Positions 17,040-31,964 of a stretch of DNA of 64,000 nucleotides are shown in pieces (within the stretch, counting starts at the first letter, position 1; the number at the start of each line of letters is the position of its first letter). A program made the position numbers and the translations under genes. The notes under the pieces were generated by a model. It searched no databases. It was not told the DNA's origin and was given only the letters and a program-made list of their open reading frames with translations. Origin of the DNA: a virus. Lineage: Duplodnaviria; Caudoviricetes. The stretch lies in the IMG/VR virus record IMGVR_UViG_3300021426_000001. The stretch is one strand, 5' to 3'.

Positions 17040-18338
17040 TTAGATAGAGTAGTTCGGGTTCTTCACTTTGAATGACACGTTGTAGTCGTCTCTGAGACGG
17101 AGAACGAAGCCCTCACGCTTGTGAGACAAGTTCTTTCCGAAGCAGGTGTTCTTGTCGGACTGCTGGAGCATGATGTCCACGCCAGTGACCTTGACGCCCT
17201 TGTCGTTGATCATCTCGCCAGGCAGCTTGTAGTGCTCGTCGAGAACTGGAACGAACTTCAGATCGTGCTCAGCAGCGAACTTGACAGACTGCTCGTAGTT
17301 GAGCTTGTTCCATCTGACCTTCCACTTCTTGCCGTTCGTGGTGTCGAGGTACTTCTCCTTCCAGTAGAAGTCGAAGAAGATTACATCCGTCTCGTCCAGC
17401 TTGTATATGTTCCCCTGGATGCCCGGACCCACGTGCTCGCCACGGCAGAACCACTCGCCCGGAATAGCCTCGATCTTCTTGTCTAGACCGAGTCTCTTCA
17501 CAGTGTCCCAGAAGTTCTTGCCAGTCCCCTTCGGGTTGAGCTCACGGGTGCGAGAGCAGACGCCGACGTGCTTCTTCTTGCGTCCGAAGATCCCTTTCTT
17601 CTTCATCTCTGTGAAGATGGTGATGTTCTGACCCTCGAGCTTCTCGGTAGCTACCCACTCTCTGTCCTTGTACTGCTCGTACATTCTCGTGTAGAGCTTC
17701 TGGACGTTCTCTTCGTCAGACTTGCCAGGGTGAGTCGGATCCCATGTTTCTGAGATGTGACGAGACTTTCTGAGGTTTCTGAACCACTTGAATCTCATCA
17801 GGAATCGGAGAATGAAGCCGTCTCTCGAGGTGTCAAGCTTCTGAGCTGCGAGACCAGCCTCCTCTTCGTCCTCGACCATCTCCCTTATCTCGAACTGAGC
17901 AGTGAAGTCCTGACCGAGCTTATACTTAGTCAGACCGACGTCCTCGGGCTTGAATAGAATGCCCTGAGAGATAACGCCGAACTTGCTTAGCTTCATAGAC
18001 TTGATCTTGAACTTCTTTCCGCGCAAGAACTCGAAGTACGGGTACTTGTGCATGTCCATAATCGTCTTGACAGCAGCGTGGATAGACTCCTCAGACCAAG
18101 AAGCATATTCGCCGTCGTGCTGAGAGAGCTTGACGAGCTTGTCTGCTAGATCTGGAGTCAGTCCGTCAGGCAGAACAGAGTCTACCTCGACATAGAGACC
18201 GAGATCTCCAGGCTTGAACTCGTTCTTCTTCACGACTACAGTGTAGTCCATGACGGATGCGAGTTCGATTCTGTCGGCGCCAGGAATCTCCCTGATCTCG
18301 CCGATCTTTACGATGTAAGCTAATGGCTTTCCATACAT
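17040..18338 (-). CDS. RNA ligase, Rnl2/DRB0094-like family with N-terminal OB-like domain
   Basis: IPGADRIELA...EVDSVLP N-terminus; TEKLEG, GEHVGPGIQGN, EGFV, SFKVK nucleotidyltransferase motifs. Confidence 0.85.
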   Translation of the reverse strand: MYGKPLAYIVKIGEIREIPGADRIELASVMDYTVVVKKNEFKPGDLGLYVEVDSVLPDGLTPDLADKLVKLSQHDGEYASWSEESIHAAVKTIMDMHKYPYFEFLRGKKFKIKSMKLSKFGVISQGILFKPEDVGLTKYKLGQDFTAQFEIREMVEDEEEAGLAAQKLDTSRDGFILRFLMRFKWFRNLRKSRHISETWDPTHPGKSDEENVQKLYTRMYEQYKDREWVATEKLEGQNITIFTEMKKKGIFGRKKKHVGVCSRTRELNPKGTGKNFWDTVKRLGLDKKIEAIPGEWFCRGEHVGPGIQGNIYKLDETDVIFFDFYWKEKYLDTTNGKKWKVRWNKLNYEQSVKFAAEHDLKFVPVLDEHYKLPGEMINDKGVKVTGVDIMLQQSDKNTCFGKNLSHKREGFVLRLRDDYNVSFKVKNPNYSI

Positions 18339-20440: not shown

Positions 20441-20974
20441 TTATAGTTCCTTGCAGTTGTCGCGAATGCAGAAGTTTATGAGTCCATCTGATGTGTTCTC
20501 TCGCTTGCACTTCTTGATGCACTGTTCTCTAGATGGGCTGGACTCTTCTCTGCTAGAACCGCTCTTAGTTTCAATTTTAGAGCTGATTGCAGACGCTTCG
20601 CCCTGTGGGAGTACCAAGTACACAGTGTCGCGCTTTTCGACGTATACAGTGTCTTTACGGACCGTCTGGCGCCCCTTTGCTTCATCCAGTATCGCAGCGA
20701 TCTTCGCGATCGGAATGTTCTGAGAGTGTCTGCCAGAGCAGTAGCTCTCGTCTCCGCCGCATACTGTGATCACTGCGGTCTTCAGATCACGGTCGTTGCA
20801 CTTATCGGGATGTGAGAGACATGCTCTGAGATAGAGATCCCAGTCTTCCGCTTTGCATTTTTCCATGTCAGACGCGCACTTCATACCGAAGAGCTTTGGA
20901 ACTGCTACGGCAGCTAGAATGAGGATGATTACGATGACTACCATGAGTTCGATCAGTGTAAATCCCTTTTTCAT
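20441..20974 (-). CDS. type IV pilin-like protein (prepilin cleavage/methylation motif), Cys-rich
   Basis: MKKG/FTLIELMVVIVIILILAAVAVPKLFG with E5 and P22; TAATG coupling to upstream gene. Confidence 0.85.
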   Translation of the reverse strand: MKKGFTLIELMVVIVIILILAAVAVPKLFGMKCASDMEKCKAEDWDLYLRACLSHPDKCNDRDLKTAVITVCGGDESYCSGRHSQNIPIAKIAAILDEAKGRQTVRKDTVYVEKRDTVYLVLPQGEASAISSKIETKSGSSREESSPSREQCIKKCKRENTSDGLINFCIRDNCKEL

Positions 20975-21324
20975 TATTTCTCCTTGCATAGTATTTCAAT
21001 GCACTTGTCGATGTCGGATTTGATGTAGTGGGTAGACTTGCATGTCTCTTCGCAGTTCTCGTCGATCAAGACCTCATCGAACAACGTCGGATCAGACGGA
21101 ACGGCTCTAAGAGATCTGCCGTTGGTTCTAGACTCGTACTTCTTCGGAGGGATGTTCTCACGAACCTTGACTCTTTCCTGGATCTGATTTCTCTCTTGCT
21201 TCTCCAGGAGAGCAGCAATTCTGTCAAGCGTCTGCTCGATGTGGCGTAGCTTATCCATGCACAGCATGTCGCAGCTGTATGAGCTCACGACGACTGCGAA
21301 GACTATCATCATCAACTTCTTCAT
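20974..21324 (-). CDS. secreted/lipoprotein-like protein with C-terminal 4-Cys domain
   Basis: signal peptide MKKLMMIVFAVVVSSYSC; CxxxC-x12-CxxxxCKE. Confidence 0.7.
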   Translation of the reverse strand: MKKLMMIVFAVVVSSYSCDMLCMDKLRHIEQTLDRIAALLEKQERNQIQERVKVRENIPPKKYESRTNGRSLRAVPSDPTLFDEVLIDENCEETCKSTHYIKSDIDKCIEILCKEK

Positions 21325-21328
21325 GTCC

Positions 21329-21598
21329 CTATCTCCTTCCGATGATGTTCTTTATGAATATTCCAGACAAGAGCACTGTGAAGAATCCTAGGATCCAGAT
21401 AGCGCCCATGTAAGAAGAGTCGACTGGCTTGTGCGGATCTACTACGAATGTCGTCTTCGTAGGAACCTGGATCTCTGCCATAGAAGAGTATGTGTAAGCG
21501 GGAAGGTTCAGCTGCTTCGGTTTGCTGTCGTGGATCTCTACGTCGTCCTTGAATACTGGCAGCTTTGAGAGGTGAAACTCGAACGTCTCTTGTTCCAT
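21329..21598 (-). CDS. C-terminally anchored membrane protein
   Basis: TM helix then IIGRR; first gene after promoter. Confidence 0.65.
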   Translation of the reverse strand: MEQETFEFHLSKLPVFKDDVEIHDSKPKQLNLPAYTYSSMAEIQVPTKTTFVVDPHKPVDSSYMGAIWILGFFTVLLSGIFIKNIIGRR

Positions 21599-21630
21599 TT
21601 TGTCTCCTATTGTCTCCTAGTTTGTTTTGA

Positions 21631-21676
21631 AATATAGAAAAAAGAGGAAGCGCTTGAAAATTATAGCAGCTTCCTC
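21631..21676 (-). terminator. intrinsic terminator overlapping promoter -10 TATATT
   Basis: stem GAGGAAGC/GCTTCCTC followed by U-run on minus strand, then TATATT. Confidence 0.7.
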
Positions 21677-21688
21677 GGTAAGTATTAT

Positions 21689-21848
21689 CTCCGCGTCTAT
21701 CGGAAGACCATTGGCTGGTCGCGATAGACCATTGGGGCGGAGTTTGTCACCTTAGCAGCTCCCAACGCTGCGGGTGGACTAGTTCGCTTATTTCGTTTCT
21801 GAGCCTTCTCAGGGCTCGGTCCTGTAGCACTAACTGGGGCTACGACCG
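21689..21848 (-). ncRNA. unclassified structured RNA (four stem-loops plus possible pseudoknot)
   Basis: nested CTCCGC/GCGGAG, GTCTATCG/CGATAGAC, GACCA/TGGTC; GCAGC/GCTGC; GAGCC/GGCTC; GTAGC/GCTAC. Confidence 0.55.
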
Positions 21849-21858
21849 GTCTGGAATC

Positions 21859-23139
21859 TCACTTGGAGGAGAGCTTGTTGGTGATCTCCATTAGCATGTT
21901 GAGACCAACAGCGTCCATAGCGTTTGCGCCCTTAGAGTCGGATCCGTTGAGCATGATTTCAGGTACGAGCGGATGAGCGGAGTTAGCGAGAGCCTGAGCC
22001 ACGCCGACCTTAGTCTTATATTCCCATTCAGCTCTTTCTTGCGGAGTAAGACCAGCTCTTACGAGTGCCATGTTAGCAGCAGCTTCTGCTTCCTTTTCGG
22101 CCTTGATCTTCTTAGCGACTTCGTTTGCTCTCTTAGCTTCGTATTGTGCCACTTCGAAGTCCTTCTGAGCTTGTAAGACTGCCACTTCCTTTTCCTTCTC
22201 AGCGATTGTAGTCGCCTTGATCTTTTCCACGAGCTGTTGTGCCTGTTCACGTGCTACGTCTGCCTTGCCCTTTTCACGAGCGGTGATAGCTTCCTGCTTA
22301 GCAGCTTCAGCTTCTGTAGCCTTGGAGACACGTTCCATTTCTCTCTTCTTTACCACGTCCAACTGATCCTGAGCGATCTTGTCTAGCTTGACCTTCTGAA
22401 TGACGCACTGAGTGATCTGGATGCCTGCCTTAGTGAGAGCAGACGGCTTCAAGATGATGCGGCGGCCGTTAGTGTCGAGCTTGAGCTTCGTGATCGTATA
22501 TTCTTGGTATTCAGCCTTCTTAATGACCTTTCCATTCGAGTCGAGTTCATCTGGGCCTGTCGGTTCCTTGATGACGTTAGTCTGTGTGAGGTATTCACCT
22601 TCAACGACCTGGTCATTGAACATGCGGTTCATTTCAGCGAACTTAGTGACCTTTGCCTCTTCTGCTGTGTATAGCGGAGCAGTCTTACGGACAGCGGATA
22701 GCACTTCGTTTCTCACGAGGTTGTGCTTGATGTTCTTAGAGCTGCCGTAGATTCGATGTAGCGCTAGGAGCTTTTCGCAGTCTGTTGGAAGTTCATAGAG
22801 AACGTAGCCTGACATAGAAGCGCCAGCGTTTCGAGACAGAGTCACGTCGACATCGTCTTCGTCAGTGTCATCGCCTTCCCAGCCCTCACCACGGACCTTT
22901 TCCGTAGATGAGTTGAAGTAGAACGCCTTAGCACGTTCGTAAACGTAGATGTCTGCGAAGCCCTTGACGTACCAGCCCTGACCTTCTACGCAGCTCATGG
23001 TTCCGAACGGGCTCTGCTTGATGATGAGCTCGGTCGAGTTCTTGTGACCCACGAGCATGTTGAAGAGGATGATTCCCAGGATGATGGTGGCCACGAGAGC
23101 GCCAGCGATAATCTTGGTCTTTGTGGAAAGATTTTCCAT
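21859..23139 (-). CDS. SPFH / band-7 family membrane protein with coiled-coil tail
   Basis: N-terminal TM, IKQSPFG..., long EA/KA-rich coiled coil, VPEIM C-terminus. Confidence 0.75.
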   Translation of the reverse strand: MENLSTKTKIIAGALVATIILGIILFNMLVGHKNSTELIIKQSPFGTMSCVEGQGWYVKGFADIYVYERAKAFYFNSSTEKVRGEGWEGDDTDEDDVDVTLSRNAGASMSGYVLYELPTDCEKLLALHRIYGSSKNIKHNLVRNEVLSAVRKTAPLYTAEEAKVTKFAEMNRMFNDQVVEGEYLTQTNVIKEPTGPDELDSNGKVIKKAEYQEYTITKLKLDTNGRRIILKPSALTKAGIQITQCVIQKVKLDKIAQDQLDVVKKREMERVSKATEAEAAKQEAITAREKGKADVAREQAQQLVEKIKATTIAEKEKEVAVLQAQKDFEVAQYEAKRANEVAKKIKAEKEAEAAANMALVRAGLTPQERAEWEYKTKVGVAQALANSAHPLVPEIMLNGSDSKGANAMDAVGLNMLMEITNKLSSK

Positions 23140-23241: not shown

Positions 23242-23952
23242 TTACTTGTTCATCATCTTGATCTGATCTTCAGTCAAGCGCTGAACGCCATACTTCTTGA
23301 GATCTTCTTCTGTCGCTTCATGGAACTTGGCCATGCTGTCGAAGTAGACGTACTTGTCGACGTGAATGCGCTCATGGTTCGGACAGAGGATGTACGAGAG
23401 GTAGTTGAAGTCACGATCGTGACCGTTGTCCTTGAGCTCTTCTGACATTCTCACGCGCCACGGATAGCGTGGAGGACAGTACGGGAACTTGATTTCTAGA
23501 GCTTCTGGGCAGTACTTCTTGAGAACCTTGTCAGTTCTGTTAGTGCCGAGAGCCATAGCGTGACCGTCTGCCAGCTTGACTTCGTCAAGAACCGTGTTGT
23601 CGATGTCGTGATAAGAGACATTGCCGTCTGCGTCTATCTCCTTGAACAGAGAAGATCTGCGAACGCACTGGAAGTGCTTTCTCTTGTCGTTCTCTCCAAG
23701 GCCGTAGCTGTCGCCCCAGGACTCTGGAACGTCCTCGATCGGAGTCAGCGGAATGTCGTGCATGAGACACTCTAGGATGCTGCGAGTGATGGAGAAGGAC
23801 ATGCCTGAGTGGCCGTCCTCACAGAGAGACTTGTAAGCCTTAAGCGCAGAGTCGAGACAGCCGTTGACATACGGAGTCCAGCCGCAAGCTTCTTTTCCCT
23901 CGAATTCCTTCTTGAGCTTGATTTCGTTTTCTGCCCATTCAACAAGTGACAT
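23242..23952 (-). CDS. conserved phage hypothetical protein
   Basis: DGHSGMS...PLTPIED...QCxRxSSLFK motifs recalled from other large phages. Confidence 0.7.
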   Translation of the reverse strand: MSLVEWAENEIKLKKEFEGKEACGWTPYVNGCLDSALKAYKSLCEDGHSGMSFSITRSILECLMHDIPLTPIEDVPESWGDSYGLGENDKRKHFQCVRRSSLFKEIDADGNVSYHDIDNTVLDEVKLADGHAMALGTNRTDKVLKKYCPEALEIKFPYCPPRYPWRVRMSEELKDNGHDRDFNYLSYILCPNHERIHVDKYVYFDSMAKFHEATEEDLKKYGVQRLTEDQIKMMNK

Positions 23953-29171: not shown

Positions 29172-30671
29172 TTACTTGATCTGCTCATAGCGAGCAGAGA
29201 GAAGCACATCCTTCAATACCTCGAACGGATCGAACTTGTTGGACATAGCCATCTTCAAGATGTTCTGGCTGAAGCCCGAGAGCAGCTTGAGACCTTGGTC
29301 GTTCTGCTGCAGCGGCATAGCGTTCGTTCTGGAGTTGACGTTCCAGAAGAGCAAGCCAGGCATCTTGTAGCCCTTAGCCTTGAACTTTCCAGCGATCGTC
29401 TCGAAGAGAGTCTTCCAGCGATCCTTAGAGCGGTCGTACTTGAGGGTCGTTGCGCCGTTGAACTCCATGTCGGAGATGATCAAGACGTCCGGGATGTCCT
29501 CCTGCTTCATCTTGTTGTCGACGGCAGTTCTGAGGATCAAGTTCATTGTAGCCTCGATGTTCGTAGAGCCGCATGAGTCCTCCTTGAATGTTCTCACGAG
29601 CTTGTCGTGGAGAGACATCTGGTCGCTGAGCTTGATGAGAGTCGGATGATCATCGAAGGTGATGAAGGTGTTCTTGAATCCACCAACGTTTCTCTCAGCG
29701 CAGTAGATTGCGAGAGCCGTAGCCACGTCCTCTGCCTGAATGTTGGAGTTCGGGATCGTAACGTCCATAGAGCCAGAGCCGTCGCGGACGACGATGAGAG
29801 GCTTAGACATGTCGATCTTCGGCAAGTTCTTCCACATACCCTCGAGAGCTGCGTCATACGGCTTTGCGGTCGGATTCCAGCCGCTCACAGTCTTGTAAGC
29901 GTGGACGATGTCGTGCGGGAACGCGACAGCGGAGTTGATCTTGACCTCGCCCTTGTCCAGAGCGTTCAAGAACTCGCGGCGGCGTGCCTCGTCGTGCTTG
30001 AGGAAGGAGTCCTTGTACTTCAGGTTGGCCTTAGACGGCACAGTCTGGTAGTTGATCTCGTCCCACTTGTTAGCACAGAGCTTGACCTCGATGACGTTCG
30101 AGTAAGCGCGAAGCTTAGAGAGTGTCTTGCGGTACTGAGCCGGGTGCATGCCGAGAGCCTTGCAGAGCAGGTGAGCCTTTGCGACAGTCTCCTTAGAGGA
30201 GGTGTTCACAGACGGCAGCCACTTGCCGAGCAGAGAGATCGGCTTGTTATCCTTGAGCGCCTTCAAGTCAGTGTCGAGCTGAGTCTTGATGAGAGCGATA
30301 GCGTCATCTTCTGCTGTAGTGCCGAAGAGCTCTGTCACGATGTCCCAGCGAGAGTACTCGGGAATGAGCTTGATGAGGTGCTTGTACTTCGGAAGAACGT
30401 TCTTCACGAGGATCTTGAAGAGACGGCGCTCGCCGAGACCCTGACGAACGTCGCCAGCGTAGAACATCCACTTCAGGGCGAGGACCGGATCCTCTGCGAA
30501 AGCTGCCAAGAAGTCCGAAAGAATTGTCTCCTCAGTAGCGCCACGGTAAGACGGAACCTTGAAGTTCATATCCACGAGAGCGTTGCCAGAAGTAGCGAAC
30601 GAGACTGCACCGTTCTCGGTACGAGTCGTGCGCTTGTTGAGAATTTTCTCCATTTGAGAGTAGAATGACAT
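29172..30671 (-). CDS. DUF2828-type TROVE/VWA (Ro60-like) protein
   Basis: TENGA, DVRQGLGER, GKWLPS, VRDGSGSM (MIDAS), STN, ISDMEF, FWNVNS, SGFS motifs; start MSFYSQ after AAGGA. Confidence 0.8.
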   Translation of the reverse strand: MSFYSQMEKILNKRTTRTENGAVSFATSGNALVDMNFKVPSYRGATEETILSDFLAAFAEDPVLALKWMFYAGDVRQGLGERRLFKILVKNVLPKYKHLIKLIPEYSRWDIVTELFGTTAEDDAIALIKTQLDTDLKALKDNKPISLLGKWLPSVNTSSKETVAKAHLLCKALGMHPAQYRKTLSKLRAYSNVIEVKLCANKWDEINYQTVPSKANLKYKDSFLKHDEARRREFLNALDKGEVKINSAVAFPHDIVHAYKTVSGWNPTAKPYDAALEGMWKNLPKIDMSKPLIVVRDGSGSMDVTIPNSNIQAEDVATALAIYCAERNVGGFKNTFITFDDHPTLIKLSDQMSLHDKLVRTFKEDSCGSTNIEATMNLILRTAVDNKMKQEDIPDVLIISDMEFNGATTLKYDRSKDRWKTLFETIAGKFKAKGYKMPGLLFWNVNSRTNAMPLQQNDQGLKLLSGFSQNILKMAMSNKFDPFEVLKDVLLSARYEQIK

Positions 30672-30685
30672 TTTGAAGTTTTCCT

Positions 30686-30756
30686 TCGGTTCAAAGTTGA
30701 TCAAGATGGAATTTTGATTGTGCGAACCAAGCATATCAAATTGCTGTTACCATCTT
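30686..30756 (-). ncRNA. structured 5' leader RNA of the DUF2828 gene
   Basis: AAGAUGG/CCAUCUU and UUUGAU/AUCAAA stems, ACAGCAA internal loop, apical loop complementary to RBS-adjacent GAACCGA. Confidence 0.6.
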
Positions 30757-30827: not shown

Positions 30828-31964
30828 TTACAAATCATCATCTTCATCATTGAACTTCGTCTTTAGCTCGTCTACGACATGACGGAAGATCTTCTCGTTG
30901 ACGGACTTGCCGCAAGCGACTTGGATAGCCATGTTGCCTACGAACTTTCCGCCGAGAGAGATAGCCTGCTCGTAGCGCTCACGACCAGTCAGACCAGAGA
31001 TCTGGTAGACGACCGTAGAGATCTGAGCGAGCAGAGAGCGGCATCCCTCGTCGAGGTTCTCAGCGTAGTACTTCATCTGCGGGAGCTCTTCCGGAATAGC
31101 AGCCTTGTACTCCGGATCGACCTTGAGAGTCTTTACGTCGAAGTGCAAGCGGATGTCCTTCTTAGTGATCCCAGAGATCATGTGGAACTTAGAGAGGTAT
31201 TCCAAGCCCTTGACCTTTACCTTGAAGCCAGAGTCGAAAGTGACTACGAAGCCCTCGTGATCCACGTCAAGCGCTCTCGCGTACTTGACCATCTCCTGGT
31301 AAGTCTTGAACTCCTTCATGGTAGAATAGCGGACTCCGATGCGGCCAGCGATCTCTATGATGTCGATCATCTCAGACTCTTCATGATTCTCGTCGAGAGC
31401 GCCCAATAGAACCAGACCCTCGTAGTTGTAGTGACATACGTGCTGATCTTCCCTAGAGACGATCTCGAAGCAGTAAGTCCAGCCGTAGTCCAAGTAGCGG
31501 TCGCAGATTTCCTGCCCTACGCACTTGTCAAGCCACTTCTGAGCCCACTTAGCCTGATCAGAGGTGAATGAGCCGCCAGTCTTGATGATCCACTTGCCGT
31601 CGTAGTAGAATAAGATGCCGAGCGAGCCGTCGATCTTGTCCATAGCTCTGAAGAATCTCGTCATCTTCGGCTCGAAGCCGTGACCGAGCTTCTGAAGGAT
31701 CTTTCCGACTTCAGCGAGCTGACCGTCTTCTGTCCAGATCTCTTCAGTGTTGAAGAACTTGTTGAACGGCCAAGCGACGATGTCGCCAGTAGCCTTGTCG
31801 AACACGATGCCACGGCAGCAGAGAGTGATCTCGTCCCACGCGTGGTCATAGACAGTCTGTAGAGAGTACTTGAAGCCGATGAGCTTGCCGTCTTCGGACT
31901 CGTGTGAGTTTAGCCAGCCGAGCTTTTCATATTCTAAGCACTTTTCAAGAGTTAAGCAGTTCAT
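30828..31964 (-). CDS. RNA ligase 1 (T4 Rnl1/RnlA-like)
   Basis: CRGIVFD, PFNKFFN, KIDGSLG, TYCFEI, EGFVV, KVK motifs. Confidence 0.85.
   Translation of the reverse strand: MNCLTLEKCLEYEKLGWLNSHESEDGKLIGFKYSLQTVYDHAWDEITLCCRGIVFDKATGDIVAWPFNKFFNTEEIWTEDGQLAEVGKILQKLGHGFEPKMTRFFRAMDKIDGSLGILFYYDGKWIIKTGGSFTSDQAKWAQKWLDKCVGQEICDRYLDYGWTYCFEIVSREDQHVCHYNYEGLVLLGALDENHEESEMIDIIEIAGRIGVRYSTMKEFKTYQEMVKYARALDVDHEGFVVTFDSGFKVKVKGLEYLSKFHMISGITKKDIRLHFDVKTLKVDPEYKAAIPEELPQMKYYAENLDEGCRSLLAQISTVVYQISGLTGRERYEQAISLGGKFVGNMAIQVACGKSVNEKIFRHVVDELKTKFNDEDDDL

What the first reader, a model, noticed from the sequence alone, without database searches (positions are those of the whole stretch)
21644..21848. 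About 200-nt structured RNA with a pseudoknot after the SPFH gene
Seen: in an otherwise gap-free genome, a GC-rich intergenic stretch folds into four consecutive stem-loops plus a terminator. On the transcribed strand the loop GUUGGGA (21760-21766) is complementary to the bulge CCCAAU (21731-21736) inside the next nested helix (CUCCGC / GUCUAUCG / GACCA). CCAAUGGUC occurs twice. It did not fit tRNA, hammerhead or HDV cores by eye. Inference: an unclassified ncRNA (3'-UTR stabiliser, protein sponge or processed sRNA) directly upstream of the pilin-mimic operon.
Basis: partly seen in the sequence, partly recalled or inferred. Interest (0 to 1): 0.72.

Follow-up and report, generated by a model that had tools for sequence, protein, structure and literature searches.

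The report
Read-through tail of a phage SPFH gene
The "structured RNA" after the SPFH gene of this rumen jumbo phage is most likely a 53-codon tail of that gene, translated when ribosomes occasionally read through its UGA stop; a hairpin 9 bases downstream may promote this, which would be an unusual case of programmed read-through in a DNA phage.

Summary
On the minus strand, 21638-21858 folds into four hairpins plus an intrinsic terminator (z -4.7).

The ncRNA reading misses the main signal. The stretch is an open frame of 53 codons, in frame with SPFH, directly behind its TGA stop.
- All six SPFH relatives that end in TGA carry such an in-frame tail. It starts basic-x-basic-Pro (L007: Thr) and, in the five complete tails, ends in [P/A][M/L]V[F/L][K/R]-stop.
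- None of the 13 relatives ending in TAA has a related tail.
- One relative (P0019) carries the same motif as its ordinary C-terminus, with no stop.
- Another (L003) carries it in a separate small gene just downstream.
- Indels against the only other lineage with the full element are +6, -15 and +3.
- "CCAAUGGUC twice" is the peptide repeat Pro-Met-Val.

RNA structure is also selected: six compensatory pairs, and a hairpin starting 8-9 nt after the UGA in five of six lineages despite different sequences.

Best reading: programmed UGA read-through gives a minor, C-terminally extended SPFH isoform, with the structure acting as stimulator and protector. Rfam, tRNA, SECIS and Y-RNA checks were negative. 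The pseudoknot has no covariation support. All evidence is comparative.

The parts
21859..23139 (-). SPFH/Band-7 gene (426 codons) ending in TGA at 21859-21861. N-terminal membrane helix, SPFH domain, long coiled coil.
   Evidence: Pfam PF01145 and phrog_11908. Closest named relatives are the SPFH proteins of crAss001-like phages. Twelve protein clusters at 94-100% identity, from independent assemblies, all stop at the same place.
21700..21858 (-). In-frame extension of 53 codons behind the TGA: a basic, proline-rich linker, then PMVYRD and PMVFR, followed by TAG at 21697-21699.
   Evidence: Homologous in-frame tails occur in L001, L044, L007, L006 and L004. The motif is fused in P0019 and lies in the small protein at L003:4346-4687. 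dN/dS is about 0.3.
21850..21858 (-). Purine-rich 9-nt spacer between the UGA and the first hairpin.
   Evidence: The spacer is 8-9 nt in L001, L006 and L004, and 9-11 nt in L044.
21817..21849 (-). Hairpin P1 (10 bp with an AG bulge), the candidate read-through stimulator.
   Evidence: Double changes against L001. A hairpin sits at the same position in five of six TGA lineages, with different nucleotide and amino-acid sequences.
21802..21816 (-). Small hairpin P2 (4 bp, 7-nt loop).
   Evidence: A C-G to U-A double change against L001. The window's own MFE prefers a shifted 5-bp version.
21746..21779 (-). Hairpin P3 with the loop GUUGGGA (21760-21766).
   Evidence: two double changes and one G-U change in the upper stem. 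The loop is invariant and lies in the Ala-Leu-Gly codons.
21689..21742 (-). Long hairpin P4. It spans the two Pro-Met-Val repeats and holds the second stop codon (TAG 21697-21699) in its 3' arm.
   Evidence: The outer and apical helices are kept in L001. The middle helix re-forms in a different register.
21638..21676 (-). Intrinsic terminator: an 8-bp GC-rich stem (21644-21676) with a 17-nt loop, then U6.
   Evidence: helix 9, 100% paired, one double change. The consensus scan missed it because its loop exceeds 8 nt.
21329..21598 (-). Next gene: an 89-aa membrane protein that itself carries an LPVFKDD motif.
   Evidence: This gene and the next one are absent from the L001 lineage, where the pilin-like gene follows the terminator directly.

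Best explanation
The stretch is the 3' part of the SPFH mRNA and is translated at low frequency.

Most ribosomes stop at the UGA (21859-21861) and release the 426-aa SPFH protein. A minority insert an amino acid there, most likely Trp from a near-cognate tRNA-Trp. They continue for 53 codons to the UAG at 21697-21699.

The product is a minor SPFH isoform with a flexible, basic, proline-rich linker and a tandem P-M-V-[Y/F]-R motif at its end. The same short motif appears in related phages in two other forms. In P0019 it is fused directly to SPFH. In L003 it sits in a separate small exported protein encoded just downstream. It therefore probably docks something to the SPFH assembly, or docks the assembly to something. 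Read-through would fix the ratio of tagged to untagged subunits.

Hairpin P1 starts 9 nt after the UGA. That places it at the ribosome's mRNA entrance while the stop codon is in the A site, which is the position of known read-through stimulators. The remaining hairpins (P2-P4) probably keep the rarely translated tail folded and protected from nucleases or Rho. The terminator at 21638-21676 ends the transcript.

Shown here: the conserved TGA, the conserved in-frame coding tail, the natural fusion, and the conserved hairpin position with compensatory changes. Inferred: that read-through happens, its rate, the inserted residue, the stimulatory role of P1, and what the motif binds.
For: (1): behind the TGA the SPFH frame stays open for 53 codons (window), 51 (L001), 36 (L044), 34 (L007), 23 (L006) and at least 19 (L004, contig end). 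The tails begin [D/K/N]-x-[K/R/Q]-P (L007 has T). The five complete tails end in [P/A][M/L]V[F/L][K/R]-stop (alignment). The 13 relatives ending in TAA have no related tail.

(2): TGA rows are scattered among TAA rows in the core clade of the SPFH tree, so the association recurs in several separate lineages.

(3): P0019 is sister to L001 and 79% identical over 361 residues. It ends in the same 14-residue motif with no stop codon in between.

(4): the window tail matches the small protein at L003:4346-4687, encoded after a TAA-ending SPFH, at 10 of 14 residues (E 4e-7); the window's own next gene carries LPVFKDD.

(5): indels against L001 inside the tail are +6, -15 and +3. After the second stop they are +2 and -1. 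The last codons differ only synonymously, and the stop changes from TAG to TGA; dN/dS is about 0.30, against 0.14 in SPFH. The other two frames are closed in both lineages. L035 differs from the window by one synonymous change in 159 nt, while the true intergenic part differs much more.

(6): TGA ends 33 of 99 genes in the window, so the genome is not recoded; none of the 32 tRNAs of the complete relative G003, nor the tRNAs found in G009, has anticodon UCA. Both carry tRNA-Trp(CCA).

(7): a hairpin starts 8-9 nt after the UGA in five of six lineages (-13 to -18 kcal/mol in four), although the encoded residues differ; six pairs changed on both sides.

(8) Literature: UGA is the leakiest stop codon (PMC7026636). 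Stem-loops with 7-9-nt spacers, spanning 100-200 nt 3' of a UGA, stimulate read-through up to 10-fold in alphaviruses and plant viruses (PMC3159437). Phage Qbeta makes its A1 protein by read-through of the coat gene terminator (PMC3159437).
Against: - There is no direct evidence of translation: no proteomics, ribosome profiling or reporter assay.
- To my knowledge, structure-stimulated read-through has not been demonstrated on bacterial ribosomes. Basal UGA read-through is low.
- L007 lacks a convincing P1 hairpin (z 0.09). Single-hairpin z-scores are modest (-1.5 to -3.4).
- The +4 base is G or A, not the leaky C.
- The full five-hairpin element exists in only two lineages, so covariation statistics rest on essentially one comparison.
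- An open frame of about 50 codons is not rare by chance (p about 0.08). L002 has an unrelated 67-codon open frame after its TAA.
- Database searches for fused forms using the tail as query found nothing usable. P0019 was found only by inspecting C-termini.
- Synonymous divergence in the tail is not lower than in SPFH, though that alignment is uncertain.
Confidence: 0.6

Rival explanations
1. A non-coding structured RNA. It would be a 3'-UTR or processed small RNA acting as a stabiliser, sponge or regulator. The open frame would be incidental.
For: A strong fold. Compensatory changes in P1, P2, P3 and the terminator that cost amino-acid changes. A terminator that would give a defined 3' end. 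A hot spot for RNA genes: L006 has a tRNA-like gene at the same place.
Against: It does not explain the perfect TGA/tail versus TAA/no-tail split, the shared C-terminal peptide motif across lineages whose nucleotide sequences no longer align, the in-frame indels, the synonymous-only changes at the end, the P0019 fusion or the L003 protein match. There is no Rfam match even at E 10. There are no copies elsewhere in the window or in five related phage records.
Confidence: 0.12
2. A decaying remnant. A downstream motif-bearing gene like that of L003 lost its start and now lies, untranslated, behind SPFH. The structure and the frame would be leftovers.
For: L003 and L005 have the motif in a separate gene. 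The downstream gene content is fluid: two extra ORFs in the window compared with L001.
Against: Six diverged lineages (56-86% SPFH identity) keep the frame, the TGA and the terminal motif. The window and L035 differ by one synonymous change in the tail, but by many changes just downstream. dN/dS is below 1.
Confidence: 0.08
3. An independent micro-ORF. It would start at an internal codon, for example the GUG that lies 8 nt after GGGAG in the window and L001. It would encode a peptide of about 17 aa ending in PMVFR.
For: GGGAG-N8-GUG is conserved between the window and L001. In-frame AUGs exist in the Pro-Met-Val repeats.
Against: L006 has no in-frame start at all. L044 has no Shine-Dalgarno sequence, and in L007 it lies only 2 nt from the AUG. 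This model does not explain why the 33-36 codons upstream stay open, with indels in multiples of three and a conserved start directly after the UGA.
Confidence: 0.08
4. Selenocysteine insertion: the UGA is decoded as Sec, directed by hairpin P1 acting as a bacterial SECIS.
For: An in-frame UGA followed by a translated region, with a hairpin about 10 nt downstream. That is the bacterial SECIS layout.
Against: Apical loops differ in every lineage and none starts with G or GU (the criterion is recalled from the literature). No relative has Cys at that position; they have TAA or nothing. There is no tRNA-Sec among the phage tRNAs scanned. No Rfam family, the SECIS models among them, matched even at E 10. 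A Sec in a disordered linker has no obvious chemistry.
Confidence: 0.04
5. A cis-regulatory leader (riboswitch or attenuator) that controls read-through of the terminator into the pilin-like operon.
For: A structured domain, then a terminator, then an RBS and start codon within about 45 nt. That is the classic layout. In L001 the pilin-like gene follows directly.
Against: By inspection there is no convincing antiterminator: only 5 bp between CUUCC and GGAAG. The downstream gene differs between the two lineages, whereas the upstream SPFH junction is constant. The coding signature is left unexplained.
Confidence: 0.05

Closest known systems
Read-through of the coat gene stop codon in RNA phage Qbeta (A1 protein)
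   Same: In a phage, a stop codon ends an abundant protein. Occasional read-through gives a minor C-terminally extended isoform in a fixed ratio (PMC3159437).
   Different: Qbeta is an ssRNA phage with a long extension, and it is not known to depend on a nearby hairpin. Here the phage is a roughly 260-kb dsDNA phage, the tail is 23-53 aa, the protein is a membrane scaffold, and there is a hairpin 8-9 nt downstream.
Extended 3' stem-loop read-through stimulators of alphaviruses, tobraviruses and furoviruses (Firth et al. 2011, PMC3159437); MuLV gag-pol pseudoknot
   Same: A UGA, a 7-9-nt spacer, and then a stem-loop or structure spanning 100-200 nt of the read-through ORF, supported by compensatory substitutions.
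   Different: Those act on eukaryotic ribosomes and mostly have UGA-C contexts. Here the system is bacterial with a UGA-G/A context, the fold is a chain of local hairpins rather than one long-range stem, and nothing has been tested.
Programmed frameshift isoforms of tailed phages (lambda G/GT; capsid and tail proteins of Listeria phages A118, A500 and PSA; PMC5009743)
   Same: dsDNA phages that use recoding near the end of a gene to make a fixed minority of C-terminally extended protein.
   Different: Those shift frame at slippery sites. Here the frame is unchanged and a stop codon is decoded.
Bacterial SECIS elements
   Same: An in-frame UGA with a hairpin about 10 nt downstream, inside translated sequence.
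   Different: No conserved loop, no Cys homologues, no tRNA-Sec found and no Rfam match. See the membership test.
Bacterial SPFH proteins with a partner gene immediately downstream (HflK/HflC; stomatin-NfeD operons)
   Same: An SPFH scaffold gene followed by a small membrane or exported partner. The motif-bearing small proteins of L003 and L005, and the window's 89-aa protein, occupy that position.
   Different: No NfeD or HflC homology was detected. The partner motif is here appended by read-through. What the motif binds is unknown.

Membership tests
Any Rfam 15 family (includes SECIS, Y RNA/YrlA, viral read-through and frameshift elements, riboswitches, ribozymes) | Covariance-model match at or near the gathering score | tested here: not met
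   No match at gathering score in the whole window. With E up to 10 on 21560-21900, the only hit was a chance 13-bit match to a nematode snoRNA.
tRNA / tmRNA | Cloverleaf detected by ARAGORN | tested here: not met
   No tRNA or tmRNA in the window.
Programmed stop-codon read-through | A leaky stop codon (UGA) conserved at the same position across diverged relatives | tested here: met
   TGA at the homologous codon in the window, L035, L001, L044, L007, L006 and L004. Twelve near-identical protein clusters end at the same residue.
Programmed stop-codon read-through | An in-frame downstream ORF under protein-coding constraint | tested here: met
   Six of six TGA lineages have a homologous tail and none of 13 TAA lineages does. 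Indels are +6, -15 and +3. dN/dS is about 0.3. The motif also occurs in ordinary ORFs, P0019 and L003.
Programmed stop-codon read-through | A stimulatory 3' RNA structure about 8 nt after the stop | tested here: met
   A hairpin starts 8-9 nt after the UGA in five of six lineages, with compensatory changes between the window and L001. L007 is the exception. Its function as a stimulator is inferred.
Programmed stop-codon read-through | The extended protein is actually made | not testable with these tools
   Needs proteomics, ribosome profiling or a reporter assay.
Bacterial SECIS / selenoprotein gene | A conserved apical loop (G or GU at its start) at a fixed distance from the UGA | tested here: not met
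   Loops differ in every lineage and none begins with G. The criterion is recalled from the literature, not re-derived here.
Bacterial SECIS / selenoprotein gene | Cys-containing homologues at the UGA position; tRNA-Sec and SelB available | tested here: not met
   Relatives have TAA or no residue there. There is no UCA-anticodon tRNA among the phage tRNAs scanned. Host sel genes were not tested.
Genome-wide stop-codon reassignment (code 4/25-like phages) | TGA avoided as a stop and frequent inside genes; a suppressor tRNA present | tested here: not met
   TGA ends 33 of 99 genes in the window, including overlapping junctions. No suppressor tRNA in G003 or G009.
Y RNA (partner of Ro60-like proteins) | A terminal stem formed by the 5' and 3' ends with a Ro-binding bulged helix, plus a tRNA-like module; encoded beside the Ro gene | tested here: not met
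   No Y_RNA or YrlA match. The fold is a chain of local hairpins without a closing stem. The Ro-like DUF2828 gene is about 7 kb away. G003 has that gene at 69% identity but no match to the RNA model.
Intrinsic (Rho-independent) terminator | A GC-rich stem followed by a U-tract | tested here: met
   An 8-bp stem at 21644-21676 plus U6. It is conserved in L001 with one double change.
Riboswitch or attenuator leader | Mutually exclusive terminator and antiterminator pairings conserved across homologues | tested here: inconclusive
   Only a 5-bp candidate was found by inspecting. There was no systematic search.

The most novel reading that the evidence does not exclude
A clade of rumen jumbo phages uses true programmed UGA read-through on bacterial ribosomes, driven by a hairpin 8-9 nt downstream. 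The product is a minor SPFH-scaffold isoform tagged with a PxVF[K/R] docking motif. The same function is met in sister lineages by gene fusion or by a separate downstream gene. This would be the first structured read-through signal described for a dsDNA phage or bacterial system.
Probability: 0.4. Interest if true: 0.75.

Novelty: new variant of a known kind. Interest (0 to 1): 0.6.

Why it matters
Programmed read-through is textbook for RNA viruses and phage Qbeta. I know of no documented case for tailed dsDNA phages or bacterial genes, apart from selenocysteine. The recoding reviews I read (PMC5009743, PMC7026636) list none.

A conserved UGA-plus-hairpin signal here would show that bacterial ribosomes can be programmed in the same way. 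It would provide a compact, testable element of about 60 nt. It would also warn that "intergenic structured RNAs" directly behind UGA stops in phage genomes can be hidden coding sequence that gene callers truncate.

It also points to a short linear motif, PxVF[K/R](D), shared by several small proteins around phage SPFH genes. That is a handle on what these widespread phage SPFH scaffolds do.

Tried and rejected
- Rfam at gathering score and at E 10: nothing.
- ARAGORN: nothing.
- blastn of the element against 50,697 phage records: no match.
- Pattern scans of IMG/VR and the JGI metagenomes. Only the window-like lineage (L035) and the L001/L037 lineage carry the full element. All other hits were unrelated coding sequence.
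- Covariance model R1. No further copies in the window, in 19 loci or in five whole related phage records. R-scape-style statistics are therefore impossible.
The DUF2828/DUF7788 domains are confirmed, but the RNA shows no Y-RNA features, and a relative has the protein without the RNA.
- Riboswitch or antiterminator: no convincing alternative pairing by inspection.
- CRISPR-repeat mimic: considered from memory only and not pursued. No repeat arrays were available to compare.
- Pseudoknot: no covariation for either partner.
- Searches for fused proteins with the tail as query. The word-index search found none. The full HMMER scan found only a low-complexity false positive, P0123.
- PDB sequence search with the SPFH protein: no hit.
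DNA for the many ENA/Logan relatives (P0002-P0019) could not be fetched, including the contig of the fused form P0019.
- No whole genome is held for the window.

Full report
**Context**

The window is part of a large phage genome. Almost all genes lie on the minus strand, tightly packed. No whole genome is held. The protein index records contigs of up to 262 kb for the window's SPFH protein. Related IMG/VR records are 184-411 kb.

The finding lies between two genes:
- upstream, the SPFH/Band-7 gene at 21859-23139 (Pfam PF01145, phrog_11908);
- downstream, an 89-codon gene at 21329-21598.

A Tad3-like gene lies upstream and a pilin-like gene downstream. Earlier notes of this scan name rumen Fibrobacter as host; I did not test that.

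**The observation**

The minus strand of 21599-21858 folds into four hairpins and a terminator:

| Element | Coordinates |
|---|---|
| P1 | 21817-21849 |
| P2 | 21802-21816 |
| P3, loop GUUGGGA | 21746-21779 |
| P4 | 21689-21742 |
| Terminator stem plus U6 | 21638-21676 |

The MFE is -83.5 kcal/mol with z -4.68. The other strand folds less well. GC is 0.54-0.57 against 0.49 for the window. There is no Rfam family and no tRNA.

**Relatives of the element**

The SPFH protein has hundreds of relatives, and 19 distinct IMG/VR loci were fetched. The full five-hairpin element occurs in only two lineages:
- the window's own, represented by L035 from a JGI metagenome (97.5% nt identity);
- L001/L037, where SPFH is 82% nt identical.

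A covariance model built from these finds nothing else in the window, in the loci, or in five whole related phage records.

L001 folds the same way (z -3.8). On the model-guided alignment, 92% of cells pair and six pairs changed on both sides. Slid controls give 35-42% paired and 0-1 double changes. So the fold is real and selected, but the statistics rest on essentially one comparison.

**The turn**

Translating the region showed that it continues the SPFH frame. Behind the TGA, the frame stays open for 53 codons in the window and 51 in L001. The two tails are alignable as protein.

I then read the end of SPFH in every locus.
- All six lineages that end in TGA have an in-frame tail: the window, L001, L044, L007, L006 and L004.
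- The tails begin with a basic tripeptide and Pro (Thr in L007).
- Wherever the contig is long enough, they end in [P/A][M/L]V[F/L][K/R]-stop, usually twice (alignment).
- All 13 lineages that end in TAA have no related tail.

In the SPFH tree the TGA rows are scattered among TAA rows of the core clade. The association therefore recurs in several lineages rather than being inherited once.

**Further coding evidence**

- Indels between the window and L001 inside the tail are +6, -15 and +3. After the second stop they are +2 and -1.
- The last codons differ only synonymously, and the stop codon itself changes from TAG to TGA.
- dN/dS is about 0.30, against 0.14 in SPFH. The alignment of the linker part is uncertain.
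- The other two frames are closed in both lineages.
- L035 differs from the window by a single synonymous change in 159 nt, but by many changes in the real spacer further down.

Most telling is P0019, an SPFH protein from another assembly. It is sister to L001 in the tree. It ends in the same 14-residue motif as an ordinary C-terminus, with no stop in between.

In L003, where SPFH ends in TAA, a separate small protein with a signal peptide is encoded directly downstream. It contains the same double motif: 10 of 14 residues match the window's tail, E 4e-7. The window's own next gene carries LPVFKDD. The gene after that carries the four-cysteine domain that forms the C-terminal half of the L003 protein.

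The motif is thus a protein-level module that travels with SPFH in three arrangements: read-through tail, fusion, and separate gene. The GUUGGGA loop lies in the codons for Ala-Leu-Gly.

**How the UGA would be decoded**

The genome is not recoded. TGA ends 33 of 99 genes in the window, including overlapping junctions.

The complete relative G003 has a TGA plus a tail. None of the 32 tRNAs found in it has anticodon UCA, and the same holds for the tRNAs found in G009. Both carry a tRNA-Trp(CCA). Near-cognate decoding, classically by tRNA-Trp, is therefore the likely route.

UGA is the leakiest stop and UAA the tightest (PMC7026636). That fits the TGA/TAA split.

**The RNA structure**

A hairpin begins 8-9 nt after the UGA in five of the six TGA lineages. 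Four of them fold at -13 to -18 kcal/mol. Both the nucleotides and the encoded residues differ between lineages. For example, Val-Val-Ala...Ser-Ala-Thr-Gly in the window corresponds to Val-Val-Val...Thr-Thr-Thr-Gly in L004. Pairing, rather than peptide sequence, seems to be what is kept there.

This matches known read-through stimulators in position and scale. Those have a 7-9-nt spacer and structure over 100-200 nt of the read-through ORF (PMC3159437). L007 is an exception, with no convincing hairpin (z 0.09).

Compensatory changes in P2 and P3 also cost amino-acid changes. The downstream hairpins are therefore selected too. My inference is that they keep a rarely translated stretch folded and protected until the terminator.

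**The pseudoknot**

The alternative partner, the second CCAAU, is invariant, as expected for conserved codons. It therefore says nothing either way.

**Rivals**

| Rival | Main problem |
|---|---|
| Pure ncRNA | Does not explain the coding signature |
| Decaying gene remnant | Does not fit conservation across six lineages |
| Micro-ORF from an internal start | Fails in L006, L044 and L007, and leaves the upstream open frame unexplained |
| Selenocysteine | Fits the layout, but there is no conserved loop, no Cys homologues, no tRNA-Sec and no Rfam match |
| Leader or attenuator | No conserved alternative pairing |

**Limits**

All evidence is comparative. Read-through, its rate, the inserted residue and the role of the hairpin are inferred.

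**Verdict**

The best reading is a programmed UGA read-through tail of the SPFH gene with an embedded RNA signal, at confidence about 0.6. It is a new variant of a known kind of recoding.

An overlapping window of this genome was noted before as a "compact multi-stem RNA" (e1-5459668).

Noticed in passing
L006:3949-4065 (IMGVR_UViG_3300045988_180157): Directly after the short SPFH tail of this relative lies a 117-nt tRNA-like gene with a clean acceptor stem and T arm. It has an insert of about 45 nt in the anticodon/variable region. Rfam tRNA scores 40 bits, but ARAGORN does not call it. It could be an intron-bearing or otherwise unusual tRNA.
   Followed up: partly
window 21329-21598 and 20974-21324 (-); L003:4346-4687; L005:4348-4665: A short motif, PxVF[K/R](D/E), recurs in small membrane or exported proteins next to SPFH. 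A four-cysteine domain is shared between the window's 116-aa protein and the C-terminal half of the L003 and L005 small proteins. The module is shuffled between lineages.
   Followed up: partly
window 23242-23952 (-): The gene just upstream of SPFH matches Pfam Tad3, an inhibitor of type I Thoeris defence (E 8.5e-22).
   Followed up: no
window 29172-30734 and 30828-31964 (-); L038: A DUF2828 + DUF7788 protein with a weak Ro60-vWA match sits next to a T4-type RNA ligase 1. A second ligase is at 17040-18338. The complete relative G003 has the DUF2828 protein at 69% identity.
   Followed up: partly
window 21631-21660 (-): A promoter-like TTTTCA-N18-TATATT overlaps the loop and 3' arm of the terminator after the tail. 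It is not above chance in the scan.
   Followed up: no
G003:131497-140714 and G009:38-7114 (loci L052-L081): Related phages carry large tRNA clusters: 32 tRNA hits in G003 and 18 in G009. One G009 call has an odd two-base anticodon (L066:2506-2577). The window itself has no tRNA.
   Followed up: partly
L007:4378-4600: In this relative, a further non-coding stretch of about 220 nt follows the tail's stop. It has several hairpins and a terminator, and contains GGUUGGGAGG. The covariance model R1 does not match it.
   Followed up: no
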